A DNA stretch of 32,000 nt, from contig NZ_OZ239769.1 in NCBI RefSeq assembly GCF_965196625.1, positions 480,001 through 512,000 of the forward strand, read 5' to 3'. This stretch comes from Candidatus Saccharimonadota bacterium. Its GTDB lineage: Bacteria; Bacteroidota; Bacteroidia; Cytophagales; Amoebophilaceae. This document shows, in pieces, positions 4,224 through 27,114 of the stretch (position 1 is the first letter of the stretch; each line of letters opens with the position of its first letter). The notes under the pieces are model-generated. The model was not told the DNA's origin. It did no database searches and was given only the letters and a program-made list of their open reading frames with translations. A program made the position numbers and the translations under genes.

Positions 4224-5453
4224 CTACGCCTCTAAATGGTCTTCATATACTTCATAATCATAGTCATCTATCATTCTGGTTACTTCATTGAAGTTAATGC
4301 CTAGCAATATAATGGCTTTTTGCCTGAGTAAGTAAGGCTTATAATACCCGTTTGCTTTGATTTGTGCTAAGGCTATTTTCCCGGCGGATTTATATTTGAT
4401 TTCTATAATGTAGATGGCACTTTCTACTTCTAAAACAATAGACCTCTTTTGAGCATCCATTTCTAATGACCTAGTGCACTTCTAATCGCATCCCGCTCTT
4501 GTACAAAAAGTCCTTTACACACTTTTCTAAACTGTATTGTATACTCCTCTGAAAAGAGGCTGCTATCTCTTTATTAGGAAACTTTAATGTATATAGGCTA
4601 GTAGATGCATCATAATCATGAATGGTTAGATAGCCCGTTTGAAACATCAATGATTTTAAGCTAATCTCACGCCTACTCCCTGTATACATGAGATCTTCTC
4701 TAGTAGCCTCTATTTGGAGGTTATCTATATTCAGATCGAATCTATCAGGATCTGCCAACATCTGGTTAATGAGTATGGTAGGGCTACCTGACTCATACCA
4801 GTAGTTTTCTAGTTTACCAGATTCTAAAAATTTTAGCGTAGAACATGGGTTGTATACACTTGCGCCATCTTCATAAAACTTATATCCATTGTAATAACTT
4901 GCTATGTGGCGCATAACTTCTAAATCCGTTATTTTTTTATTTTCTTTTGCACCATTGTTCAGCAATATCTGCTAAGTTTTTTGAGAATATGGCTACAATT
5001 TCTTGCTGCGTATAGCCAAACATGGCATCCGCTAGCCATATCTGCGACCAAATTAGAAAGCTTTGTTTTAAGCAAATGGCCTCTAAGTGTTAACCCATAT
5101 GTTGAAGCCACCTCTGTAAGCGTCTCTTCTAGAGACAATTGTAATAATTCTGCAGAGTCATTGGTTAATCTAGAATGGTCTAGTTTAATCACTGGATATT
5201 TCTTCCACTCATATCCATTTTCTGACTCACCTATATAACAATCCTTAAATACCTACTTGTCTCCACTGCATATAGTAGCCAGTGTATTGATAAACAATGA
5301 TTTCCCAAATCTCCTAGGCCGGGCTATAAATACAGGATTTCTTTTTTCAATTAGCCCTTGTGCATATCGTGTTTTATCTACATAATAGCCTGTTTCAATC
5401 ACTGATTGGACATCTGAATACCCAATAGGCAGTGCATTTGTCCTACGCATCAT
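4224..5453 (-). pseudogene. AAA-ATPase-like / PD-(D/E)XK (DUF1703-type) protein, broken into four ORF pieces
   Basis: Four consecutive minus-strand ORFs (5253-5453, 4959-5192, 4471-4965, 4224-4460) in different frames. The N-terminal piece carries LPIGYSDVQSVIETGYYVDKT and ARPRRFGKS (predicted AAA-ATPase N-terminus). The last piece carries the nuclease-core-like IYIIEIKYKS...ALAQIKANGYYKPY. Confidence 0.75.
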
Positions 5454-5528: not shown

Positions 5529-6651
5529 TTACCCCCCATCATCATCTAGCTTTTCTACACGCCTTGACCGTGGCCATAAATAGTGTACAGCTAACATCAC
5601 CAGACCATTCACTAATACGCAAGGAAAGGTACCACTAGCCGTCAACAATAGAGGAGCCACCAATTTTCGCCAAGCGATAACAGCTAGTGCACCTGCAGCC
5701 ATACCCATTAGTGCATTACGTGCAGTAGTACGAAACCCTAAAACAGCCAAAATAAACGGAGCAGCTATTATGGGTATATAAAAACGATCAAACCAATTAC
5801 TCATAGTACGAATAGCAGAAAGCGTAGAACTATTTAAAGACAAGAAAATACCCAACACAGCAATAACTAGCATTGCCTATATAAGCTACCCTATAATGGG
5901 CAATACAGGACAAGTGCTTTTTAAGGCGCACACGGAGTAATATTGGTAATATATCATAGCTAATCATAACCGAACAGACATGCAGCCTAGAATCAGCTGT
6001 GGACATCGTAAGAGCTAATAAACAGACACAAAATATTCCTTTAAATAAAGGAGAAATATGCATCAATATATAATTTAAAGTCTCATTTTTTGGTATATCT
6101 GGTGGTAACCATGCAAAAACAAATGCACCAACAAGCATACAGCATAACATGATTACAAAACTAATCATACCAGCATATAAACATACTTTTTGGGCTTGAG
6201 CAGGCTCAGCAGCCATATAGATATGCTGCATATAGCCAGGCTCTATAAAGCCAAACATAAAGGTTAGATAACGCAACGTAAGCCCCAACTTGGTTTGACC
6301 GACAAACAGCCCATTCCATGTAAATTGCTTTTGAGTGGTTACAAAAGCAAACGTTTCACCAATTGGACGACCTGTCTTGATAAACATAAACCAGGCTAAG
6401 AGACAAATAAGGCCCACAAAAGTTATAGATTGCCATACATCCGTCAATACAACAGCACGGCTACCACCAAATATAGTATAGGCAATAAGTAGTATAGCAG
6501 CCAATATAGTAATGCATACTGGGTTCACTGAAGTTATACATCCACTTATAACCTGAGATAAGATATAAATCTGTGTAGCAATAAGGATAATAGAGTAGCA
6601 ACAACTCAATAAAGCAGTAATAGCTCTTGGATATTTTCCATAAAGGAACAC
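5529..6651 (-). pseudogene. sodium:solute symporter (SSS) family paralog, 5'-truncated and frameshifted
   Basis: ORFs 5830-6651 and 5529-5873 align by eye to aa ~115-465 of the 22449-26030 protein. Examples: GGSRAVVLTDVWQSITF vs GGIRSVTFTDVMQFITF; LALTMSTADSRLHVCSVMISYDIL vs IAMTMSTADSSLNSCATMLTHDLL; FILAVLGFRTTARNALMGM vs LLLAIFGFRGTSRTALIGM. The first ~110 aa and everything after the SSS domain are missing. Confidence 0.72.
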
Positions 6652-6654
6652 CTA

Positions 6655-7006
6655 GTTCTAGTAGAGATAATAAAATTTCTTCCCGCGCTACTCTTTTTTC
6701 AGTTCCATAATCACATAAGCATTCATAATCATGAGTTTCAGATTCGGAATCATATATATGGCCATCACATGGCAATGGAGCATCGTACATCGCTTGCGCC
6801 ACCATGGATAGCGGGGTTATACCCAATCGATTTGGCATACTGCAAATCTCTATTAGTTCGGCACCATTATTTCTAACAGCTTTCTTTAACCAATTTACTA
6901 AGCATTCTACTATGGCTAAATTAGCAGTATTAACCCCTAAATGGATAAGTGTGTTCTTATCATCTCCATGCTTTTGTAAAAAAGCTTGCTTTAGACCAAT
7001 CCTTCC
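6655..7006 (-). pseudogene. ankyrin-repeat protein remnant
   Basis: The minus-strand frame is open from 7006 (stop at 7007-7009). It reads ...FLQKHGDDKNTLIHLGVNTANLAIVECLVNWLKKAVRNNGAELIEICSMPNRLGITPLSMVAQAM..., two ANK-like repeats of the G-x-TPL/LIH...A...IV..L type. No credible start, and it runs out of frame into the SSS remnant. Confidence 0.45.
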
Positions 7007-7011
7007 CTATC

Positions 7012-7701
7012 AGCCGCTTGTAGTGAGCGGTTTAGCCTATGGGGCAGATATATGGGCCCATAAGCAAGCATTGGAAATGGGACTGACTACCGTAGCGGTA
7101 TTGCCAACCAGTTTGGACCAAATCTACCCTACTGCACACAAAAAAATAGCGATGGAGATGTGTGGGCTAAGAGGAGGCTTGCTTACAGAGTACCCTATAG
7201 GCAAGTGGACTGGGCGCCCATACTTTTGTGGCACGCAATAGAATTTTAGCTGGGCTGGCAGATGTAACCATAGTGATTGAGGCGAAAGAAAAAAGTGGTG
7301 CATTGATTACTGCCTATTATGCCAATAGCTACCATCGAGAAGTTTTTGCCTTGCCAGGTAGCATTTACTCAGCTACCTCGGCAGGATGCCATCGATTGAT
7401 TAAACGGAATCAGGCACACCTACTGACCTATATAGATGACTTAGCTTATATTATGAACTGGAAGGTGAACCATCAACCCAAAGTAGACATTTACCGTAAT
7501 GATCCACTTACAGAACCAGAGCAAATGGTTTTAAACCAGTTTCAGGAAACTACACAACCCATAACCGTTGATGGGCTAACAGAGGCTACCGCTTTGCCAC
7601 CTGGCGCATTACAAGCGGCATTGCTATCACTAGAATTACAAGGGTTATTACGGGCACTACCGGGTAAGCGTTTTATATTAGCACCTATGCATAAACAATA
7701 G
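7012..7701 (+). pseudogene. dprA: DNA-processing protein DprA (Smf), 5'-truncated and frameshifted
   Basis: DprA Rossmann-core motifs VVSGLAYGADIWAHKQALE...TVAVLPTSLDQIYP sit in ORF 6804-7241. ARNRILAGLADVTIVIEAKEKSGALITA...VFALPGSI sits in ORF 7228-7701. The frame changes in the CTTTTG run near 7222-7228. Homology begins only at ~7012, so the usual ~100-aa N-terminal part is absent. Confidence 0.8.
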
Positions 7702-18116: not shown

Positions 18117-18703
18117 TCATGGTAACTGCGCTGTATAAATTGGTTTTAAATCAGCTACTAATGCCTTTCTATGTTTATATGAAACATACTGCAAGCTATT
18201 CCTAATGGCATGAATCATATAGAGCTGATGGTCCGTTTTTGGGTATACAGCAGAAATGGCCTCGGACATACTTGGCAAATAAAGATAAGAGCTTATCATC
18301 TAAGCCAGGTATTCTTGTGTGACGCTTAGGTAATAAAACAGGTTCAAAAGTGGCTGCTCTATCTCTGGGGACATCAACTGATATCACCCTATTATCAGTT
18401 GATAACTTGCTTACTGGATAAGCCGTTACGTGCATTATCTGAAGCACTATACGCATACTTATTATAACCTAAATGGTTATCCATTTCTGACTTTAACGCT
18501 TTTTCTACAAGACGCTTACTTAATTGCTTGAGTAAGCCGTCTTGATCAAATAGGGTGGATAGATCTACGCCTGAGTCTATGAGAACATCTATGGCTTGGC
18601 TTATACCGTCTTTGGGTCTGTCTTTTCTTTTCATTCTGGTCAAGGATTATTGTTTAGATAAATATACAACCGAAAAAATATTTACACGACACTTAAGTAG
18701 ACA
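18117..18703 (-). mobile_element. IS256-family (Mutator-type transposase) element remnant, frameshifted, internally deleted and 3'-truncated
   Basis: Three overlapping minus-strand ORFs. These are the N-terminus ...LLKQLSKRLVEKALKSEMDNHLGYNKYA, then DVPRDRAATFEPVLLPKRHTRIPGLDDKLLSLFAK, then AISAVYPKTDHQLYMIHAIRNSLQYVSYKHRKALVADLKPIY. All parallel the intact transposase at 20559-21773, but ~130 aa of the catalytic core is missing. The terminal ATTTACAC motif near 18680-18703 resembles the intact copy's end. Confidence 0.8.
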
Positions 18704-18722
18704 GACCCGATCCTAAGGTATT

Positions 18723-18827
18723 AATGGCCAAAAACATGCACAAAGATCATGGTATGGTCATCAATGATATCTGTAAAACATTAAAAATTTCCAGAGCAAG
18801 TTTTTATCGATATGTTAATATATTATG
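18723..18827 (+). pseudogene. possible C-terminal HTH remnant of a serine recombinase/resolvase
   Basis: The 34-aa ORF MAKNMHKDHGMVINDICKTLKISRASFYRYVNIL resembles the resolvase HTH tail (I...L.ISR.T.YRY.). No catalytic domain lies upstream. Confidence 0.3.
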
Positions 18828-19206
18828 ATAATCATCAAAATTGTTTGTTAAAGACTTAGTTTTAGATTTTAATCTATACCCACTCTACTGCTATAAGACT
18901 TTCAATTTCGTTGGCTATATAAAACCAAAGTTACTTTTAATAAAAATACCCTCTCTAGTGAGGGTTAATACCGATAAGCATATTACCATTGCCTTAACGT
19001 GCTTTATTCTCCCTTTTCTGAGGCCACCCCAATTACTTATGATGGAACTATTTAAGGTCTTTTATAAAGTTTAAGGGAAAAAGCAAGTATCTACTATTGT
19101 ATTAGTCAGCATTTAATCCTATACTTTTAGTGTATGAAACATACCTATACGAATCACATATTTTATGTATAGTTGTATTGATGACACCTTGTAAACTTAT
19201 ACTGCT

Positions 19207-20530: not shown

Positions 20531-21850
20531 GTAAATTATTTTGTGTAAGTGCCGTTTTTTAGGAGAATCTTCCCTCAAATTCGATAGCGAATCGATTCAG
20601 AGCCGCTCTCCAATCATGTAAAGACATAGTCCACTTTTGTGATGCCTTCTGTATGGCTAAATATACTACTTTTAATGCAGATTGGTCATTAGGAAAAATT
20701 TTACGGTTATTGATAGATTTTCTAATAACGCTATTGAGTGATTCAATGGCATTGGTCGTATAAATAATTTTTCGTATTTCATCAGGATAGTCAAAAATAG
20801 TTATAATGTTGCTCCAATTTTTATGCCATGAACGACTAATAGCTGGATATTTTTTATCCCATTTTTCACTAAAAATAAGAAGTGCTTCTTCCGCTTGCTC
20901 AAGAGAAATAGCGCGATAAATAACTTTAAGATCCGATGCGACGGACTTCATGTCCTTATAGGGTACATAACGTAACGAATTACGAATAAGATGAACAATG
21001 CATAACTGAATTTTGGTTTTTGGAAATACTGTATTAATAGCATCTGGAAATCCGGTTAATCCATCAACACAAGCAATAAAAATATCCTTAATGCCACGAT
21101 TATTTAACTCAGTTAATACTGAGAGCCAAAATTTTGCACCTTCGGTTTCTGCTATCCACAAACCAAGTAATTCTTTTTGCCCTTGACAATTAATGGCTAA
21201 TGCCAAATAAATTGATTTGTTGATTACGCGTTTATCTTGATGACACTTGATAACGATACAATCTAAATACAATATGGGATATACTGTTTCTAATGGACGA
21301 TTCTGCCAAACAGTAATCTCCTCAATAACAGATTCAGTTACTTTCGAAATTAAACTGTGTGATACCTCTGTACCATACAGCTCTTTGAATGTATCTGAAA
21401 TATCTCTGGTAGTCATCCCTCTAGCATAAAGAGCCAAAATTTGTTCATCAAATTCAGTGAAGCGAGTTTGCCCTTTGCGAATGATTTGAGGATCGAACGT
21501 GCTGTTTCGGTCACGTGGCGTATTAATTTCCATTTCGCCAAAATCACCCTTTAATCGCTTAGGAGAGTAACCATTACGGCTATTTCCCGTGTTCCTGCCT
21601 TCTATAGCATGCTTTTCATAGCCAAGATGATCCTCTAATTCTGCATCCATAGCACGTTCTACCGTGATTTTTAATAGTTGCTTGCTGAGAATAGCTAAAT
21701 CTTTTTCACTCTTAATAGACTTCGACAATTCATTTAGTAGATTTGGATCTATATTTATTTGTTGTTGTTCCATTGCTTATGACTCATTTATAACTAACGA
21801 TTTAATCCGTTAGATTAGTTAATAATAAGCATTTACACAATTTTATTTAC
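20531..21850 (-). mobile_element. intact IS256-family insertion sequence (~1.32 kb)
   Basis: Imperfect terminal inverted repeats: GTAAATTATTTTGTGTAAGTGC at 20531-20552 against the reverse complement of GCATTTACACAATTTTATTTAC at 21829-21850. They enclose a single 404-aa transposase ORF. The size is typical for IS256. Confidence 0.85.
20559..21773 (-). CDS. IS256-family transposase (Mutator type)
   Basis: 404 aa, uninterrupted. LEDHLGYEKHA, NTPRDRNSTFDPQIIRKGQTRF, YPILYLDCIVIK, FIACVDGLTGFPDAI, QLCIVHLIRNSLRYV, IYTTNAIESLNSVIRK. Confidence 0.93.
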   Translation of the reverse strand: MEQQQINIDPNLLNELSKSIKSEKDLAILSKQLLKITVERAMDAELEDHLGYEKHAIEGRNTGNSRNGYSPKRLKGDFGEMEINTPRDRNSTFDPQIIRKGQTRFTEFDEQILALYARGMTTRDISDTFKELYGTEVSHSLISKVTESVIEEITVWQNRPLETVYPILYLDCIVIKCHQDKRVINKSIYLALAINCQGQKELLGLWIAETEGAKFWLSVLTELNNRGIKDIFIACVDGLTGFPDAINTVFPKTKIQLCIVHLIRNSLRYVPYKDMKSVASDLKVIYRAISLEQAEEALLIFSEKWDKKYPAISRSWHKNWSNIITIFDYPDEIRKIIYTTNAIESLNSVIRKSINNRKIFPNDQSALKVVYLAIQKASQKWTMSLHDWRAALNRFAIEFEGRFS

Positions 21851-22448: not shown

Positions 22449-25400
22449 ATGTTAACCTTATATATTCTGCCAACTATAGTCATATTCTTTCTGTTATTAA
22501 CATTAGTCGTAGGTATATACTATAGTGGTAAAATAACTTCCTTACGTGAATATGCAATAGGTAATAAAAATTTTGCTACTGCCACTTTAGTGGCTACATT
22601 ACTGGCCACACTTTATGGGGGAGGTGCCTTGATGCGTACTGTACAACAGATTTATAATCAGGGTATATATTATATTATTATATTGTTAGCAGACAGTATC
22701 TCTATTTGGATATGGACGCTACTTATACCACGTATGGGACCATTTATGTACCACCTTTCCACAGCAGAAAGCATAGGTAGCGTATATGGTACATGGCCTA
22801 GAATCATCTCTGCACTATTTGGTGTAGTACGCTCCCTTATAACTATTGTTACACAAATTAATGTAGTCACTTCAGCTGTTGCTATCTGTATACCTAAGAT
22901 AGATTCCTATGCTATTACAGTGGCCATTAGTCTAATTTTTGTTACCTATTCTAGTTTGGGCGGCATTCGTTCTGTCACCTTTACTGACGTTATGCAATTT
23001 ATCACCTTTACAATTGTTATTCCCTTTTTTACTTGGTATATGTATATACATACCAACCAGTCGGTAACAGAGATAATTGCCTGCTTAAAGTGTTCGACGA
23101 AATTTCAATTGGATGGTTTATTTCATCTCAATCGTAAATTTATTGGAGCATTTATGCTAATATTAGCGATCATAATACCTAGTGGAAGACCTAGTATGAT
23201 GCAACGGGTATATATGTCTTCTGGAGTTATACAAGCTAAAAAAGTTTTTTATTACACTAGCATTTTTAACCTACTTATAGTGGGTTTTATCATTTTCATC
23301 GGTTTATTTACCATTGTATCCATAAATCATTTAAGTATAGAAGAAATTTGGCCCTATATTGTCGGTCAATGCCCACCTATTCTGCAAGCATCCATTCTAA
23401 TTGGACTCATTGCTATGACTATGTCGACTGCTGACTCTAGTTTAAATAGCTGTGCTACCATGCTTACCCATGATTTACTTGCTAATATTTACTCAAAATG
23501 GTACATGTTATCAGAAAAAAATCAGTTATATATAGTAAGGATTTCCTCTCTAGTTACTGGTTTATTAGCTATGATAATAGCTTTTTACTGTAAAGATTTG
23601 TTCCGGTTACTTTGTTGGGCACTTCAAGTGTCCGTGCCTATTACAGCTGCTCCGCTATTACTAGCCATCTTTGGTTTTCGCGGCACTTCCCGTACCGCGT
23701 TAATCGGTATGGGTACAGGTGTGTTGACCATTCTAATATGGAACGAATTGGTTCAATCTTCTACTGGTATAGATGGTTCTGTCCTTGCCATGCTAGCAAA
23801 TGGTCTAGCTATGATGGCAGCTCATTATCTATCAAAAAAACCAAAAGATAGATGGTGGGTTGGAATAGATGATACATTTAAACAAATTAAACAAGAAAAT
23901 TCCCGTAAGCGTGCAGAACGCAAAGAAGCGATTAAGAATTATTGGACAAATAGAAAAGATACTTTAGCCAAGTTGATGCCAAGCCACACTACGATGGTAT
24001 ATGTAGGATTATATATTACCATTACTAGTTTGTTTACTTATTCTATGATTCGTATTACGGATCATGATGGCTGCTGGCTTACTATTCAGTTATTTGGATC
24101 AGCTTGTTGTTTAGGCTATCCATTTCTTTATGATATTTCCAAAAAAATAAGATCTATTCCCAGTTGGTTTATTGGCCTATACTGGTTAGTGGGTTTATCA
24201 GTTTATCTTCCTATAAGTTTGCTTTTTACCTGGTGGTATCCTCATGATCTTATCTTTACCTTATCCTTATCTTTTTCCCATTTATTCATAATCTTATGGA
24301 TTTTTCCTCTTTACATAGGTATAATGGTTATTGCCATTACATCATTAGTAGCTATTTATCCGATTTATGTTGCATGCTATTTTCCTTTATTAGGCTCTTT
24401 ATTACCATTATGTATGATGGGTATACTAGTATTTGCTATTATTATTTGCTTTAAAATCAAAGTAGGTAATATTACCACACAGAATATTTACCTAAAAAAT
24501 CAAGAAAAAATCAGAGAATCCCAACGAGTAAAAGCCTCCCTTTATGATGCAGCAATGGTTCCATCAAATGGTTCTGCTTCCCGTGCCCCTAAAGGTTATG
24601 GATTTATTTTAAATCAAGTAGTTGGTAAGATTGAGGAATCTATCTCCTTCTTAGATAATAATATTCCAATTTATAAGCAAGATTTACAAAGTATTATCAA
24701 TAAGTTTTATGATTGGATAGCCTATTTCAATAGGATGGAAAAACATAAGGATCATGTGCTGTTACAGCCTACTAAAATTACTTTCGATAAACTGATTCGT
24801 AAAGTGGAAGTGGCACTATCCCAAGAGATTATTAATCCACCTAGGGTTCTGTTAGAAACAATAAACGATGCTGATAAAAGCCTATCTATTATAGGCGATA
24901 TCAACCAATTAGTTTATTTATTGGTTCAATCTGTTTTACGGATCGGTAAAATAGAAAACGATATTCCATCAGTTGTTCGCATACAACTGTATCCTACTAC
25001 TTTGCGCTTTATACAAGCGGATCCTATTGATAACAGCTACCCTACCTTTATGGATTTTAAATCTACTGATCTGGTTATCAGCCATTCTACCGTTGATGCA
25101 AAAGCGTTACCTAAAGTAAAGAATCAATATGACGATCTCATGGATTATATGGGAACAAAAGGTAAACAGGAAGTTCCGCCATCCATAGATCTACAACAAC
25201 AAACCCTATCTACGATTATTGAAGCCCACTACGGATATTTAGAAGTTCCTGATGATACTAGAAAAAAAACTATGTTATTAGTATTGCCGAACAATGTTAC
25301 TGATATCCTCAGTAAGATGACTATTACCCTGCCTATAGATTCCTTAACCTTAGATGCGCCTGTTACACCAAAGGAACAGGCTGATTCGATGATGGAATTG

Positions 25401-26030
25401 ATGCAGTTCCATGATTACATTTCCAAAGTATCTATCCAAGAAGATCCTATTGACACAAAGACGATTTCAGGTTTGATTTTATTATTACGGAAACATTTTG
25501 GCTTTAAAAGGCATGCCTCTGGACAGTTGTTTTATGTTCGATCAGTAGGGATTGCTGCATTAGTGGTAGAATGGGTTTTTCACTCTCCTAAAGTGATTTA
25601 TGCTTCTTTGCTTTATGAGTTGGTTCGCCGTACTTGTTTGCCGCTTTCTTATATCAAGAAACATTATAATTTAGGTGTTTATGCCTTTGTGCTAAATGTT
25701 ATAGGTATAGATAAACGTCAAGACTTAGATCATCCTTCTTTGCTTTATGTAAAAAATCGATTGAAGGAAGCGATTAAAGAAGATCACGTACAGTTATCCA
25801 TTTTATTTATAAAATTTGCTGAACGGCTTTATGACCTACGCCATGCTTCAGGCTATATCCATCTAACAGAGGTTCAACATATGGCGCAAGAAACATTGGC
25901 TATAGATGTGCAAATAGCCAATACATACTTAGGAAAAGAGATAGGAATAGCTTTAGAACAAGCCGCCAAGCAGGCACTAGAGTATTATGAAAATACAAAT
26001 AAAAAAAAGGGTGTTGCAACAAAAACATAG
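22449..26030 (+). CDS. multidomain membrane protein: SSS (SLC5) transporter domain + six-TM block + degenerate histidine-kinase-like module + degenerate RelA/SpoT-type HD domain
   Basis: 1193 aa.
- aa 1-465: SSS family (GNKNFATATLVATLLATLYGGGALM; MTMSTADSSLNS).
- aa ~512-672: six further hydrophobic helices.
- aa ~700-960: DHp/CA-like layout without the H, N or G boxes.
- aa ~1005-1180: aligns with the SpoT/Rel hydrolase domain. HASGQLFYVRSVGIAALV matches GEPYITHPVAVA; VQLSILFIKFAERLYDLRH matches IRVILIKLADRTHNMRT; AQETLAIDVQIANTYLG matches ARETLEIYSPLAHRLG. Confidence 0.85.
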   Translation: MLTLYILPTIVIFFLLLTLVVGIYYSGKITSLREYAIGNKNFATATLVATLLATLYGGGALMRTVQQIYNQGIYYIIILLADSISIWIWTLLIPRMGPFMYHLSTAESIGSVYGTWPRIISALFGVVRSLITIVTQINVVTSAVAICIPKIDSYAITVAISLIFVTYSSLGGIRSVTFTDVMQFITFTIVIPFFTWYMYIHTNQSVTEIIACLKCSTKFQLDGLFHLNRKFIGAFMLILAIIIPSGRPSMMQRVYMSSGVIQAKKVFYYTSIFNLLIVGFIIFIGLFTIVSINHLSIEEIWPYIVGQCPPILQASILIGLIAMTMSTADSSLNSCATMLTHDLLANIYSKWYMLSEKNQLYIVRISSLVTGLLAMIIAFYCKDLFRLLCWALQVSVPITAAPLLLAIFGFRGTSRTALIGMGTGVLTILIWNELVQSSTGIDGSVLAMLANGLAMMAAHYLSKKPKDRWWVGIDDTFKQIKQENSRKRAERKEAIKNYWTNRKDTLAKLMPSHTTMVYVGLYITITSLFTYSMIRITDHDGCWLTIQLFGSACCLGYPFLYDISKKIRSIPSWFIGLYWLVGLSVYLPISLLFTWWYPHDLIFTLSLSFSHLFIILWIFPLYIGIMVIAITSLVAIYPIYVACYFPLLGSLLPLCMMGILVFAIIICFKIKVGNITTQNIYLKNQEKIRESQRVKASLYDAAMVPSNGSASRAPKGYGFILNQVVGKIEESISFLDNNIPIYKQDLQSIINKFYDWIAYFNRMEKHKDHVLLQPTKITFDKLIRKVEVALSQEIINPPRVLLETINDADKSLSIIGDINQLVYLLVQSVLRIGKIENDIPSVVRIQLYPTTLRFIQADPIDNSYPTFMDFKSTDLVISHSTVDAKALPKVKNQYDDLMDYMGTKGKQEVPPSIDLQQQTLSTIIEAHYGYLEVPDDTRKKTMLLVLPNNVTDILSKMTITLPIDSLTLDAPVTPKEQADSMMELMQFHDYISKVSIQEDPIDTKTISGLILLLRKHFGFKRHASGQLFYVRSVGIAALVVEWVFHSPKVIYASLLYELVRRTCLPLSYIKKHYNLGVYAFVLNVIGIDKRQDLDHPSLLYVKNRLKEAIKEDHVQLSILFIKFAERLYDLRHASGYIHLTEVQHMAQETLAIDVQIANTYLGKEIGIALEQAAKQALEYYENTNKKKGVATKT

Positions 26031-26166: not shown

Positions 26167-27114
26167 ATGACGGAAAACTTGAAACACGATGGTTTGGCAA
26201 AAAAAAATCTTTCTGATCCAATAGCTGCTCAGGAGTTTTTGGACCATTATTTACCATACTCCTGTAAATCATTATTAGATCTAAACACGCTTAAAATTGA
26301 GGAAGAATCATTTGTAGAAGAAAACTTAAAGCAAAAATTTAGTGATTTAGTATTCTCTATCAATACTAAAAATAATCAGAAAGCTTTCATATATATGCTA
26401 GTTGAGGCAGAGGTTAGCCCTAAGTATTGGACAGCGTTTAAGTTATGGAAATATATGTTTCTCTTACTTGAAAAACATAAGACGAAAAAGAAATCAAAAT
26501 TTCCACTAATAATTCCATTGCTCCTCTATCATGGTAATACACCTTTTACTGTCCCAAGAAATTTATGGGAGTTGTTTAGTGAACCTAGCCTTGCTAAAGA
26601 GCTGATGGGAGGAGATTATCAATTGGTAGATTTGTATGCTATGCCAGATGATGAGATCAAAAATAAGGCGCACCTTGGAATGATGGAATACTTTATGAAA
26701 TATGTTCACGTGCGTGATATGCTTAAGCTATGGGAGAAATTTTTAGAAAACTTTAAGTCTTGTATTCTACTAGATAAAGAAAAAGGTTATATTTATATAA
26801 GGAATTTTTTATGGTATACTGGCAGTAAATTACCAGAAGATAAATATCAAGATTTAGAAAATATTATAAGGGAACACATTCCTAAAGAGGATAAAGAAGC
26901 TCTTATGAGAACTATAGCACAAAAATATAGGGAAGAGGGTATCAAAATAGGGAAAGAAAAAGGTAAACTAGAGGGTATGAAGCTTGGAGAAAATAAAGGT
27001 AAACTAGAGGGTAAACTAGAGGGAGAAAATGAGAAAGCCATTTCTATCGCTAGAGCCATGCTTGCAAAGCGTTACCCGTTAGAAGATATTATTGCTCTTA
27101 CTGGTTTATCCTGA
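26167..27114 (+). CDS. Rpn/YhgA-like recombination-promoting nuclease (PD-(D/E)XK, Transposase_31 family)
   Basis: 315 aa. N-terminus HDGLAKKNLSDPIAAQEFLDHYLP, core FSDLVFSI...AFIYMLVEAEVSP...PLIIPLLLYHGNTPF, and a C-terminal E/G/K-rich repeat followed by AISIARAMLAKRYPLEDIIALTGLS. Confidence 0.82.
   Translation: MTENLKHDGLAKKNLSDPIAAQEFLDHYLPYSCKSLLDLNTLKIEEESFVEENLKQKFSDLVFSINTKNNQKAFIYMLVEAEVSPKYWTAFKLWKYMFLLLEKHKTKKKSKFPLIIPLLLYHGNTPFTVPRNLWELFSEPSLAKELMGGDYQLVDLYAMPDDEIKNKAHLGMMEYFMKYVHVRDMLKLWEKFLENFKSCILLDKEKGYIYIRNFLWYTGSKLPEDKYQDLENIIREHIPKEDKEALMRTIAQKYREEGIKIGKEKGKLEGMKLGENKGKLEGKLEGENEKAISIARAMLAKRYPLEDIIALTGLS

What the first reader, a model, noticed from the sequence alone, without database searches (positions are those of the whole stretch)
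22449..26030. SSS transporter fused to a pseudo-histidine-kinase and a catalytically degenerate SpoT/Rel-type HD domain
One uninterrupted 1193-aa ORF joins four modules.
- aa 1-465 (nt 22449-23845): a full sodium:solute symporter domain.
- aa ~512-672 (nt ~23982-24462): a second six-helix membrane block.
- aa ~700-960: a cytoplasmic module with the length and hydrophobic periodicity of a DHp+CA sensor-kinase core. The expected phospho-acceptor His reads Q (GFILNQVVGKIEE), the N box reads LLVQSVLRIGK, and no G1/G2 glycine boxes are visible.
- aa ~1005-1180 (nt ~25460-25990): a domain that aligns convincingly with the (p)ppGpp-hydrolase HD domain of SpoT/Rel.

The Mn-ligand positions of the HD domain are all replaced:
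- HP His becomes R1031.
- HD becomes Y1056-E1057 (nt 25614-25619).
- ADR Asp becomes E1125 (nt 25821).
No synthetase domain follows.

SSS-domain sensor kinases of the CbrA type are known. I am not aware of an SSS + pseudokinase + pseudo-SpoT hydrolase architecture. It could be a transceptor that couples solute or Na+ flux to alarmone binding, or a relic signalling protein in a reduced genome. A decayed paralog of the SSS part sits at 5529-6651.
Basis: partly seen in the sequence, partly recalled or inferred. Interest (0 to 1): 0.8.

Follow-up and report, generated by a model that had tools for sequence, protein, structure and literature searches.

The report
Symbiont transporter with dead signalling tail
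This Cardinium endosymbiont gene encodes a sodium-solute transporter fused to a dead histidine-kinase-like module and a dead (p)ppGpp-hydrolase-like domain; the dead hydrolase domain is the best-conserved part, so it is still used, but the gene belongs to a large, already catalogued and uncharacterised family.

Summary
The 1193-aa ORF (22449-26030, +) is intact. It has a 13-TM SSS/SLC5 domain, a second 6-TM block, a DHp+CA histidine-kinase fold and a C-terminal RelA/SpoT-type HD domain.

- **Kinase module:** it lacks the phospho-acceptor His and the N, G1 and G2 boxes.
- **HD domain:** every metal or catalytic position is replaced (H→R1031, HD→Y1056-E1057, ED→R1060-R1061, D→E1125, HN→Y1128-D1129).

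The protein is not unique. It belongs to a family confined to Amoebophilaceae (Cardinium, Amoebophilus). I collected 164 full-length members, with up to at least 27 copies in one 1.19-Mb genome. Public annotation calls them "sodium:solute symporter", "HD domain protein" or, wrongly, "SpoT".

The family splits into two clades that coexist in the same genomes:
- one clade keeps canonical hydrolase motifs;
- the other, including this gene, carries the same fixed replacement set in 85-88 of 88 members at most positions.

The dead HD domain is the most conserved module (68% identity among paralogs, dN/dS 0.07-0.10). It is therefore a maintained pseudoenzyme, not a relic.

The most likely function is a host-nutrient importer with a non-catalytic regulatory or dimerisation tail. 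Ligand binding, including alarmone binding, is untested. I rate it a new variant of known kinds, of moderate interest.

The parts
22449..26030 (+). Complete ORF of 1193 aa plus stop codon. It is a member of the degenerate-HD clade of the Amoebophilaceae SSS / pseudo-kinase / HD family.
   Evidence: The closest public relatives are P0001 (92% identity, Logan/ENA), the truncated copy L004 in Cardinium sp. TP (92%) and P0002 from C. hertigii cEina3 (68%).
22449..23843 (+). aa 1-465: sodium:solute symporter (SLC5/SSS) domain with 13 TM helices. The TM8 motif MSTADS is nearly invariant across both clades.
   Evidence: Pfam SSF E 1.9e-11. TIGR00813 matches at 56 bits, below its cut-off of 184. The family profile hits CHT1 at 6e-21 and SiaT at 6e-18. 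Foldseek to SiaT 5nva gives target-normalised TM-score 0.84. Hydropathy. Invariant columns.
23844..23984 (+). aa 466-512: basic cytoplasmic linker helix (KKPKDRWW...RKRAERKEAIKNYW).
   Evidence: AF2 helices 475-500 and 502-508. This stretch lies between the hydrophobic blocks.
23985..24455 (+). aa 513-669: second membrane block of six TM helices. It is the most variable module among paralogues. The last helix continues as one long helix to aa 702.
   Evidence: Mean identity among Cardinium-type paralogues is 37%. No Pfam match.
24456..24758 (+). aa 670-770: signalling helix plus DHp-like helical hairpin (helices 717-733 and 740-766). There is no conserved His. The phospho-His column of ThkA falls near R712 in a disordered loop.
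   Evidence: Alignment blocks.
24759..25328 (+). aa 771-960: CA-like (Bergerat/GHKL-type) alpha/beta domain. D817 is kept. The N-box Asn positions read Q827 and R831. There is no G1 or G2 box, and the ATP-lid region is a low-confidence loop. The conserved AHYGY motif (aa 926-930) aligns with the 'HGG' motif of ZraS.
   Evidence: Foldseek gives 212 hits at E<=1e-3, the top ones almost all sensor histidine kinases. Profile hits to ThkA at 3.3e-6 and ZraS at 0.0096, with residue alignments. pLDDT is below 50 at aa 898-909.
25455..26024 (+). aa 1003-1192: all-helical RelA/SpoT-homologue (RSH) hydrolase-type HD domain, catalytically degenerate.
   Evidence: HD_4 E 2e-5. A profile of degenerate-type domains hits only RSH hydrolase structures, best 9e-14. 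It is the most conserved module, 68% mean identity. dN/dS 0.098, 0.071 and 0.102.
25539..25541 (+). Codon R1031, which replaces the 'HP' metal-ligand His.
   Evidence: R in 87/88 degenerate-clade members; H in 68/68 intact-clade members.
25614..25631 (+). Codons Y1056-E1057 (replacing HD) through R1060-R1061 (replacing the catalytic ED).
   Evidence: Y in 88/88. E/D/G at the Asp position. R in 81/88 at the Glu position. Y/H/R at the second Asp position. The intact clade reads H, D, E, D in 67-68 of 68.
25821..25835 (+). Codons E1125 (replacing the ADR Asp) through Y1128-D1129 (replacing HN).
   Evidence: E in 88/88, Y in 85/88, D in 88/88. The intact clade reads D, H, N in 67-68 of 68.
5541..6645 (-). 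Pseudogene fragment of another family member. Only the SSF part (equivalent to aa 112-475) remains, split over two frames. The N-terminus and the whole C-terminal 700 aa are missing.
   Evidence: tblastn gives 31% and 41% identity to the target. The best matches (45-47%) are other degenerate-clade paralogues. Pfam SSF E 6.4e-9.
20559..21773 (-). Intact IS256/Mutator-family transposase gene upstream of the target. It is genomic context, not part of the protein.
   Evidence: Pfam Transposase_mut E 3.8e-120.
26167..27114 (+). Rpn/YhgA-like (Transposase_31) gene immediately downstream. It is genomic context.
   Evidence: Pfam PF04754 E 2.5e-61.

Best explanation
**Shown.**
- The gene is an intact member of a gene family restricted to Amoebophilaceae.
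- Family members share one layout: a 13-TM SLC5/SSS symporter, a basic linker, a 6-TM block, a long signalling helix, a DHp+CA histidine-kinase fold and an RSH-type HD domain.
- The kinase fold lacks every catalytic motif in all members.
- An old duplication produced two clades that coexist in the same genomes. One keeps a canonical (p)ppGpp-hydrolase active site. The other, which includes this gene, has replaced all Mn ligands and catalytic residues with a different residue set that is fixed or nearly fixed at most positions (R, Y, R, E, Y, D).
- That dead domain is under the strongest purifying selection in the protein.

**Inferred.**
- The protein works as a Na+-coupled importer of a host-derived solute. 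Cardinium lacks most biosynthesis, and published transcriptomes show these genes expressed, some very highly.
- The cytoplasmic tail is a non-catalytic regulatory module. The DHp-like hairpin would dimerise the protein.
- The CA-like and pseudo-HD domains would act as a ligand- or partner-binding unit that modulates the transporter through the 6-TM block and the signalling helix. Alternatively they report the transporter's state.
- It neither phosphorylates anything nor hydrolyses alarmones.
For: **Domain identities.**

**No kinase motifs in any member, including the intact-HD clade.** Alignment blocks; no HisKA or HATPase_c in Pfam.

**Two clades.** The NJ tree gives two reciprocally monophyletic clades, and each key column is near-fixed within its clade.

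**Both clades occur in one genome.**
- Strain cHgTN10 has 14 degenerate plus 13 intact clusters on its 1,193,042-bp chromosome.
- In Cardinium sp. TP an intact copy, a degenerate copy and an SSF-only gene lie side by side.

**Purifying selection.**
- Mean identity among paralogues: HD 68%, SSF 56%, TM2 block 37%.
- dN/dS for the HD domain is 0.098, 0.071 and 0.102. Other modules range from 0.14 to 0.40.

**The transporter looks competent.**
- It has a complete LeuT-type fold, with TM-score 0.84 to SiaT.
- The TM8 motif MSTADS is nearly invariant.
- SSF dN/dS is 0.18-0.19.

**Expression and a role in nutrient uptake are proposed in the literature.**
- Selberherr 2022 (PMC8831229): 19 in Amoebophilus, regulated by life-cycle stage.
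Against: - No transport, binding or dimerisation has been measured for any family member, and the substrate is unknown.
- A variable membrane part combined with a highly conserved cytoplasmic tail is also what a sensor family with one common output would look like.
- The window alone cannot show whether this genome also encodes an intact-HD paralogue or any (p)ppGpp synthetase.
- dS is near saturation for two of the three comparisons. The third partner, L004, is itself a truncated pseudogene.
- The NJ tree is distance-based, midpoint-rooted and has no support values.
Confidence: 0.55

Rival explanations
1. Transceptor. The SSS domain mainly senses an external (host-cytosolic) solute or Na+. 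The pseudo-kinase / pseudo-HD tail passes that state to an unknown cytoplasmic partner by protein-protein contact. Net transport is secondary.
For: - The architecture parallels SSS-sensor kinases. One example is P0314 (SSF+HATPase_c), with 23% identity in the SSF part. Others are the Rickettsiales SLC5sbd+HK proteins (Driscoll 2017; Giengkam 2023).
- A long continuous helix runs from the last TM helix into the DHp-like hairpin, which is typical of signalling proteins.
- The conserved tail and variable membrane block fit a many-inputs, one-output design.
Against: - No catalytic output is left in this clade, and no partner is known.
- A dozen or more copies with a strongly conserved transporter core, in genomes that must import most metabolites, fits uptake at least as well.
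Confidence: 0.2
2. Nucleotide or alarmone receptor. The remodelled HD pocket still binds (p)ppGpp or a related nucleotide without a metal. The newly fixed R1031 and R1060 would hold the phosphates. Binding would gate solute import, coupling uptake to the stringent signal.
For: - The pocket residues were replaced by a new set that is fixed or nearly fixed at most positions, not randomised. The set includes two arginines.
- The SG of the RxSG loop and the aromatic residue at the guanine-stacking position are kept (S1024, G1025, F1028).
- The domain is the most constrained in the protein.
- From my own knowledge, not tested here: the catalytically dead HD domain of E. coli RelA is reported to bind pppGpp allosterically.
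- Amoebophilus has a long Rel in addition to its HD-domain expansion (Atkinson 2011).
Against: - The Arg-Lys pair that precedes SG in active enzymes is H1022-A1023 here.
- All four metal ligands are gone, and the metal normally holds the 3'-diphosphate.
- I could not determine whether Cardinium makes (p)ppGpp. No Cardinium long RSH appeared, but that is weak evidence.
- No binding data exist.
Confidence: 0.15
3. Pseudoenzyme partner. Dead-HD paralogues form heterodimers with intact-HD paralogues through the DHp-like hairpin and tune their hydrolase activity or localisation.
For: - Both clades coexist in the same genomes.
- They are adjacent in Cardinium sp. TP.
- The DHp fold is a dimerisation device.
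Against: - Copy numbers are very unequal in insect strains, for example 8 degenerate versus 1 intact in the Philonthus symbiont.
- The DHp-like region differs strongly between clades, with 14% identity.
- No interaction data exist.
Confidence: 0.08
4. Relic. The tail is decaying, function-less sequence left in a reduced genome.
For: - The window contains many pseudogenes, including a family member and dprA.
- The orthologue in strain TP is truncated and carries an in-frame stop.
Against: - The ORF is intact over 3.6 kb.
- The HD domain has the lowest dN/dS of all modules (0.07-0.10) and the highest identity among paralogues.
- The replacement residues are fixed in 85-88 of 88 members at five key positions (R1031, Y1056, E1125, Y1128, D1129), and R1060 in 81 of 88.
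Confidence: 0.03
5. Assembly chimera or mis-joined ORF.
For: The gene is flanked by mobile-element genes.
Against: The same four-module layout at the same length occurs in more than 160 proteins. These include chromosome-level Cardinium assemblies of 1.09-1.26 Mb.
Confidence: 0.01

Closest known systems
Degenerate-HD paralogues of Cardinium and other Amoebophilaceae, annotated 'sodium:solute symporter family transporter' or 'HD domain-containing protein' (e.g. P0002 C. hertigii cEina3, P0016 Cardinium sp. TP, P0048 cEper1)
   Same: Same four-module layout, same length (about 1160-1205 aa) and the same fixed replacement residues in the HD pocket. This gene is simply a further member.
   Different: It is 68% identical or less to any named NCBI protein and 92% identical to an unnamed Logan/ENA cluster. 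No member has been characterised.
Intact-HD sister clade in the same genomes (e.g. [quoted passage not shown] TP)
   Same: Same SSS, 6-TM, pseudo-kinase and HD layout. The kinase module is equally degenerate.
   Different: It keeps RxSGxPYxxHP, HDxxED and KLADRxHNxR, with Pfam HD_4 E 1e-26 to 1e-28 plus a PF01966 hit. It is about 25% identical to the target. It has no synthetase domain, so the 'bifunctional' label is wrong.
rickSpo small alarmone hydrolases (Atkinson et al. 2011, PMC3153485)
   Same: The HD-domain expansion in Ca. Amoebophilus asiaticus (15 RSHs: one Rel plus the rickSpo expansion) was placed in this subgroup. It very probably corresponds to the intact-HD relatives of this gene.
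   Different: That paper describes them as HD-only small hydrolases and does not mention the transporter fusion. This gene's HD domain is catalytically dead. I did not test subgroup membership phylogenetically.
Rickettsiales SLC5sbd+HK proteins (Orientia 'PutP': symporter + HisKA + HATPase_c + REC) (Driscoll 2017, PMC5615194; Giengkam 2023, PMC10732058)
   Same: An SSS transporter fused to a histidine-kinase module. These proteins have proliferated in obligate intracellular bacteria, and lateral spread to Amoebophilus and Cardinium has been reported.
   Different: [quoted passage not shown] Here the kinase motifs are absent, there is no REC domain, and an HD domain sits at the C-terminus. A direct evolutionary link was not demonstrated: hhalign of the middle module against P0314 found nothing.
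CbrA-type SSS sensor kinases (own knowledge)
   Same: An N-terminal SLC5 domain coupled to a cytoplasmic DHp+CA module.
   Different: CbrA has STAC and PAS domains and an active kinase that signals to CbrB. None of these was detected here.
Pseudo-hydrolase domain of E. coli RelA, and the histidine-kinase-fold proteins DivL and RetS
   Same: These are precedents for catalytically inactive RSH HD domains and for unorthodox kinase-fold signalling proteins that keep regulatory roles. The degenerate-HD profile matches RelA (5iqr, 3e-4). DivL (4q20) and RetS (6dk7) are among the structural matches.
   Different: Those domains sit in soluble or classical signalling proteins. Here both dead modules are combined and tethered to a transporter.

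Membership tests
Sodium:solute symporter family (SSS/SLC5, Pfam PF00474) | Significant match to the family profile over the full domain | tested here: met
   PF00474 matches aa 35-424, profile positions 1-406 of 406, E 1.9e-11, 43.9 bits against a cut-off of 22.8. The NCBIfam superfamily model TIGR00813 scores 56 bits, below its cut-off of 184, so the sequence is divergent.
Sodium:solute symporter family (SSS/SLC5, Pfam PF00474) | LeuT-type fold with about 13 TM helices | tested here: met
   The AF2 model has pLDDT of about 88-95 in this region. Foldseek to SiaT 5nva gives target-normalised TM-score 0.84 and rmsd 3.3 A; CHT1 gives 0.76. Hydropathy finds 13 TM helices.
Sodium:solute symporter family (SSS/SLC5, Pfam PF00474) | Na+-coupled solute transport activity and conserved Na2-site Ser/Thr in TM8 | tested here: inconclusive
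   The TM8 motif M325-S-T-A-D-S330 is nearly invariant in the family. Its spacing looks like the Na2 and Na3 sites of PutP and SiaT as I recall them, but I could not obtain a residue-level alignment to a solved SSS (one search found no single-sequence hit). Transport activity cannot be tested here.
Sensor histidine kinase (DHp/HisKA + CA/HATPase_c) | DHp helical hairpin followed by a CA alpha/beta sandwich fold | tested here: met
   Foldseek gives 212 PDB hits at E<=1e-3, the top ones almost all histidine kinases or their DHp+CA/CA fragments. The profile hits ThkA 3a0r at E 3.3e-6 and ZraS at 0.0096.
Sensor histidine kinase (DHp/HisKA + CA/HATPase_c) | Conserved phospho-acceptor His in DHp helix 1 | tested here: not met
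   The ThkA H-box column maps near R712, in an unconserved loop with pLDDT below 50. There is no His in aa 690-716 and no conserved His in helix 1 in any family member.
Sensor histidine kinase (DHp/HisKA + CA/HATPase_c) | ATP-binding N, G1 and G2 boxes | tested here: not met
   The N-box Asn positions read Q827 and R831. No DxGxG or GxGxG motif is present, and the lid region is a low-confidence loop. Pfam finds no HATPase_c or HisKA at E<=1.
RelA/SpoT-homologue hydrolase domain (Pfam HD_4 PF13328; small alarmone hydrolases) | Homology to the RSH hydrolase domain | tested here: met
   HD_4 E 2e-5, 24.8 bits, just under the gathering score of 27.2. A profile of degenerate-type domains hits only RSH hydrolase structures, best 9.2e-14. 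A whole-library phmmer search also reaches the N-terminal HD domains of long RSHs.
RelA/SpoT-homologue hydrolase domain (Pfam HD_4 PF13328; small alarmone hydrolases) | Mn2+ ligands H...HD...D and the catalytic ED and HN residues | tested here: not met
   The query reads R1031, Y1056-E1057, R1060-R1061, E1125 and Y1128-D1129. These are the same in 81-88 of 88 clade members at the fixed positions; the HD-Asp and second ED positions vary (E/D/G and Y/H/R). The sister clade is canonical in 67-68 of 68.
RelA/SpoT-homologue hydrolase domain (Pfam HD_4 PF13328; small alarmone hydrolases) | (p)ppGpp binding or hydrolysis | not testable with these tools
   Biochemistry is required. The sequence predicts no hydrolysis.
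CbrA-type SSS sensor kinase | STAC and PAS domains plus an active HisKA/HATPase_c, paired with a response regulator | tested here: not met
   Pfam finds no such domains, and the kinase motifs are absent. No response-regulator gene lies next to the ORF.
Rickettsiales SLC5sbd+HK (PutP-HK-REC) | Symporter + HisKA + HATPase_c + REC, with specific common ancestry | tested here: inconclusive
   No REC, HisKA or HATPase_c profile match. The SSF part of an SSF+HATPase_c protein (P0314) is 23% identical, E 8e-23, but the kinase parts did not align. No joint phylogeny was made.

The most novel reading that the evidence does not exclude
The dead HD domain has been repurposed as a metal-free receptor for an alarmone or another nucleotide. 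The fixed R1031 and R1060 would take the place of Mn2+. Binding would gate a host-nutrient importer through the pseudo-kinase dimer. The catalytically intact sister clade would meanwhile couple nutrient flux to alarmone destruction. Together they would form a transporter-embedded stringent-response circuit in an obligate endosymbiont.
Probability: 0.12. Interest if true: 0.8.

Novelty: new variant of a known kind. Interest (0 to 1): 0.5.

Why it matters
- **Abundance.** These proteins make up a sizeable share of Cardinium and Amoebophilus transporters, with up to at least 27 copies in a 1.19-Mb genome. [quoted passage not shown] They are currently treated simply as 'putative sodium/solute symporters' or mislabelled as SpoT.
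- **Corrected annotation.** Every member carries a dead kinase fold. One whole clade also carries a dead but strongly conserved alarmone-hydrolase fold. This changes how these proteins should be annotated and studied.
- **Natural experiment.** The family offers matched pairs of active and inactive RSH hydrolase domains tethered to transporters.
- **Alarmone field.** The intact clade would be a membrane-anchored, transporter-fused hydrolase. The dead clade would be a second example, after RelA, of a maintained pseudo-hydrolase.
- **Symbiosis research.** The family is a candidate link between host nutrient supply and symbiont growth control.

Tried and rejected
- **Single-sequence PDB searches** found nothing useful for the C-terminal half or the SSF part. 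Family profiles were needed.
- **Exact look-up** of the protein in public assemblies found no identical product.
- **hhalign** of the middle module against a genuine SSF+HATPase_c protein (P0314) found no alignment in the kinase part. A specific descent from that type of kinase is therefore not shown.
- **First dN/dS run against L004** was misaligned and was redone codon by codon.
- **Does Cardinium have a long RSH or any synthetase?**
  - The literature searches turned up only the mislabelled family itself and a Rel in Amoebophilus.
  - The supplement of Jimmy et al. 2020 was not held.
- **Rejected readings:** relic, chimera and ordinary active hydrolase. The reasons are given under the rival explanations.

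Full report
**1. What is at the coordinates**

The window carries one uninterrupted ORF at 22449..26030 on the + strand. It is 1193 aa with an ATG start. Homologues align from the first residue over 97-100% of its length.

The region is AT-rich, 32-37% G+C. An intact IS256/Mutator-family transposase gene (20559-21773, -) lies upstream. An Rpn/YhgA-like gene (26167-27114, +) lies downstream.

The organism is a Cardinium (Amoebophilaceae, Bacteroidota).
- All close homologues come from Cardinium.
- The nearest genome is Cardinium sp. TP from the mite Tyrophagus putrescentiae. Its copy (L004) is 92% identical over aa 518-1179.
- The rest of the window fits an endosymbiont. It holds housekeeping genes (rpsP, fabF, rnc, sufB, tgt, lptF/G, gatB, gyrA), ankyrin+RING proteins, IS fragments and several pseudogenes.

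**2. The four modules**

*(a) SSS domain.*
- Pfam SSF covers aa 35-424 with E 1.9e-11, above the gathering score.
- A family profile finds the choline transporter CHT1 (6e-21) and the sialic-acid symporter SiaT (6e-18) among solved structures.
- In the full-length AF2 model (mean pLDDT 80, pTM 0.68) this part has pLDDT of about 88-95. It superposes on SiaT 5nva with target-normalised TM-score 0.84 and rmsd 3.3 A.
- Family-averaged hydropathy gives 13 TM helices.

*(b) Linker and second membrane block.*
- A basic linker helix spans aa 475-508.
- A second block of six TM helices spans aa 513-669.
- The last helix runs on as one helix to aa 702.
- This block has no Pfam match. It is the most variable module, with 37% identity among paralogues.

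*(c) Kinase-like module.*
- An AF2 model of aa 690-1005 has pLDDT 79. It shows a helical hairpin followed by an alpha/beta sandwich.
- Foldseek finds 212 PDB chains at E<=1e-3. The top 50 are almost all sensor histidine kinases or their DHp+CA / CA fragments, including ZraS, RetS, CckA, HK853 and DivL.
- Sequence supports the same call. A profile of this module hits ThkA 3a0r at E 3.3e-6 and ZraS at 0.0096.
- In those alignments the conserved D817 matches the Asp before the N box, and the two N-box Asn positions read Q827 and R831.
- The family's invariant AHYGY motif matches the kinase 'HGG' motif.
- The ThkA H-box falls near R712, in a loop with no His, no conservation and pLDDT below 50.
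- No G1 or G2 glycine box exists. The lid region is a low-confidence loop.
- Pfam reports no HisKA or HATPase_c even at E<=1.
- All family members are degenerate in the same way, including those with an intact HD domain. The pseudo-kinase state is therefore ancestral to the family.

*(d) HD domain.*
- The single sequence matches Pfam HD_4 at E 2e-5 and 24.8 bits, just under the cut-off of 27.2.
- A profile built only from degenerate-type HD domains finds nothing but RelA/SpoT-homologue hydrolase domains in the PDB:

| Solved structure | E-value |
|---|---|
| B. subtilis Rel (8acu, 6yxa) | 9e-14 and 2e-13 |
| RelSeq (1vj7) | 1e-10 |
| A. baumannii protein (7qpr) | 6e-9 |
| Mesh1 (5vxa) | 3.6e-6 |
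| E. coli RelA (5iqr) | 3e-4 |

- A phmmer scan of 1.84 billion representatives with the C-terminal half also reaches the N-terminal HD domains of ordinary long RSHs.
- The ORF ends 13 residues after the domain, so there is no synthetase.

**3. The active site**

The alignment to Rel and a 164-sequence family alignment agree on these replacements:

| Canonical position | Query residue |
|---|---|
| 'HP' His | R1031 |
| HD | Y1056-E1057 |
| ED | R1060-R1061 |
| ADR Asp | E1125 |
| HN | Y1128-D1129 |

The Arg-Lys pair that precedes SG in active enzymes is H1022-A1023 here. S1024, G1025 and an aromatic residue at the Tyr position (F1028) remain.

**4. The family**

The protein is not an oddity. 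The first search returned 426 hits. The best 120 are almost all Cardinium proteins of 1160-1205 aa with precomputed Pfam SSF+HD_4.

Distant members (26-27% identity; Amoebophilus, Amoebophilaceae and Bacteroidota MAGs) keep the canonical motifs RxSGEPYxxHP, LLHDxVEDT and KLADRxHNMRT. They score HD_4 at 1e-26 to 1e-28 and also hit PF01966.

A search with one such protein from C. hertigii cHgTN10 (P0191) showed that this intact-HD type is itself widespread in Cardinium:
- 13 clusters on the 1,193,042-bp cHgTN10 chromosome;
- one or two in strains TP, cCpun, Nabis, Philonthus and cBcalN1.

A neighbour-joining tree of 164 full-length members, midpoint-rooted, gives two reciprocally monophyletic clades:
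- 88 (+1) degenerate members;
- 68 intact members, plus 7 with partial, apparently independent decay.

Column counts by clade:

| Position | Degenerate clade (n=88) | Intact clade (n=68) |
|---|---|---|
| HP His | R 87 | H 68 |
| HD His | Y 88 | H 68 |
| HD Asp | E 37, D 36, G 15 | D 68 |
| ED Glu | R 81 | E 68 |
| ED Asp | Y 33, H 31, R 22 | D 67 |
| ADR Asp | E 88 | D 67 |
| HN His | Y 85 | H 68 |
| HN Asn | D 88 | N 68 |

The degenerate clade also includes non-Cardinium Amoebophilaceae MAGs (P0100-P0109), so it predates the genus.

Both clades occur in single genomes. cHgTN10 has 14 degenerate plus 13 intact clusters. In Cardinium sp. TP an intact copy, a degenerate copy and a plain 476-aa SSF gene sit next to each other.

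The whole family is small on a global scale. Only 140 of 1.84 billion representative proteins match the C-terminal half at E<=1e-3.

**5. Selection**

Mean identity among Cardinium-type paralogues:

| Module | Mean identity |
|---|---|
| HD | 68% |
| SSF | 56% |
| DHp-like | 52% |
| CA-like | 43% |
| Second TM block | 37% |

Nei-Gojobori dN/dS of the window gene against three relatives:

| Comparison | HD | SSF | Second TM block | Pseudo-kinase |
|---|---|---|---|---|
| L001, cEina3 (68% aa identity) | 0.098 | 0.19 | 0.37 | 0.30 |
| L002, cOegibbosus (60%) | 0.071 | 0.18 | 0.40 | 0.25 |
| L004, strain TP (92%) | 0.102 | not available | 0.14 | 0.33 |

dS is near saturation in the first two comparisons. 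The third partner is itself 5'-truncated and carries an in-frame stop, so the values are rough. The ranking is nevertheless consistent. The dead hydrolase domain is a maintained pseudoenzyme, not a relic.

**6. What the literature already says**

- Brown et al. [quoted passage not shown] It has 18 homologues in Amoebophilus and 7, 3 and 2 in three Cardinium strains.
- Mann et al. 2017 (PMC5698495) report 12 putative sodium-solute symporters in cEper1. [quoted passage not shown]
- Selberherr et al. 2022 (PMC8831229) report 19 in Amoebophilus with life-cycle-dependent expression.
- Atkinson et al. 2011 (PMC3153485) recorded 'Rel[HS] + rickSpo[H] expansion' (15 RSHs) in Amoebophilus. They describe that class as HD-only small hydrolases.
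- Driscoll et al. 2017 (PMC5615194) describe SLC5sbd and SLC5sbd+HK proteins that have proliferated in Orientia and are shared laterally with Amoebophilus and Cardinium.
- Giengkam et al. 2023 (PMC10732058) define Orientia 'PutP' as symporter+HisKA+HATPase_c+REC.

None of the papers I could search describes the kinase-fold module in the Amoebophilaceae proteins, the split into live and dead HD clades, or the conservation of the dead domain. UniProt's 'bifunctional synthase/hydrolase SpoT' label for the intact clade is wrong, because no synthetase domain is present.

**7. How it most likely works**

*Shown:* the domain identities, the loss of all kinase and hydrolase catalytic residues, the fixed or nearly fixed replacement residues, the strong constraint on the tail, and a complete and constrained transporter core.

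*Inferred:* the protein is a Na+-coupled importer of a host metabolite. This fits with Cardinium lacking most biosynthetic pathways. The DHp-like hairpin would dimerise it. The CA-like and pseudo-HD domains would form a non-catalytic regulatory unit that acts on the membrane part through the continuous TM-to-cytoplasm helix.

What the tail binds is unknown. I hold four alternatives in decreasing order of likelihood:
- a sensor or transceptor role;
- a metal-free nucleotide or alarmone receptor, in which the two newly fixed arginines are suggestive but the canonical Arg-Lys pair is gone;
- a pseudoenzyme partner of the intact-HD paralogues;
- a relic, which is effectively excluded.

For the intact clade, a transporter-coupled alarmone hydrolase is the obvious hypothesis. 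That is not the protein in this window.

**8. Verdict**

Three points need correction.
- The phospho-His position was mis-assigned.
- The 'relic' option is refuted.
- The novelty was overstated, because the architecture is common and generically annotated within Amoebophilaceae.

The gene is a further member of an uncharacterised family. That family is a new variant combining two known kinds: SSS-kinase fusions and RSH hydrolases or pseudo-hydrolases. Interest is moderate.

**9. Limits**

- There is no biochemistry.
- The tree is distance-based and has no support values.
- AF2 coordinates could not be inspected, so pocket geometry is inferred from sequence alone.
- I could not determine whether Cardinium encodes any (p)ppGpp synthetase.

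Noticed in passing
window 14519-15754 (+) and 16023-17615 (+): Two adjacent genes encode ankyrin-repeat proteins with a C-terminal RING-finger-like domain. They look like eukaryote-like E3-ligase candidates for host manipulation. The RING matches are below Pfam's gathering scores.
   Followed up: partly
window 6804-7241 (+) and 7228-7701 (+): dprA (DNA_processg_A + DprA_WH) is split into two overlapping ORFs in different frames. It is probably a frameshifted pseudogene.
   Followed up: partly
window 4224-5453 (-): A string of short ORFs carries an AAA-ATPase_like N-terminus (PF09820, E 4.5e-17) and a PDDEXK_9 C-terminus (PF08011). This is a fragmented gene of the AAA-ATPase/PD-(D/E)XK type, lying next to the SSF pseudogene.
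   Followed up: partly
window 27185-27617 (-): Two overlapping short ORFs match different parts of an IS66-family transposase. This is a degraded IS element just downstream of the Rpn/YhgA-like gene.
   Followed up: partly
L013 8952-18969 (Cardinium sp. TP, contig JANAVR010000003.1): An intact-HD family member (P0298), a degenerate-HD member (1204 aa) and a plain 476-aa SSF gene lie side by side. A NUDIX hydrolase gene sits just upstream. I did not examine whether the clustering or the NUDIX neighbour has functional meaning.
   Followed up: no
L004 1-2156 (Cardinium sp. TP, contig JANAVR010000001.1): The closest orthologue of the target (92% aa identity) is truncated at about aa 518 and has an in-frame stop at aa 744. 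The same gene is a pseudogene in that strain but intact in the window.
   Followed up: yes
proteins P0163, P0169, P0179, P0207, P0248, P0289 (intact-HD clade): A few members of the otherwise canonical clade show partial and mutually different losses of the HD, ED or HN residues. This suggests independent, ongoing degeneration of the hydrolase site in some copies.
   Followed up: partly
window 17616-19206: About 1.6 kb has no ORF of 100 aa or more between the second ankyrin/RING gene and the amidase gene. I did not examine it. It may hold gene remnants.
   Followed up: no
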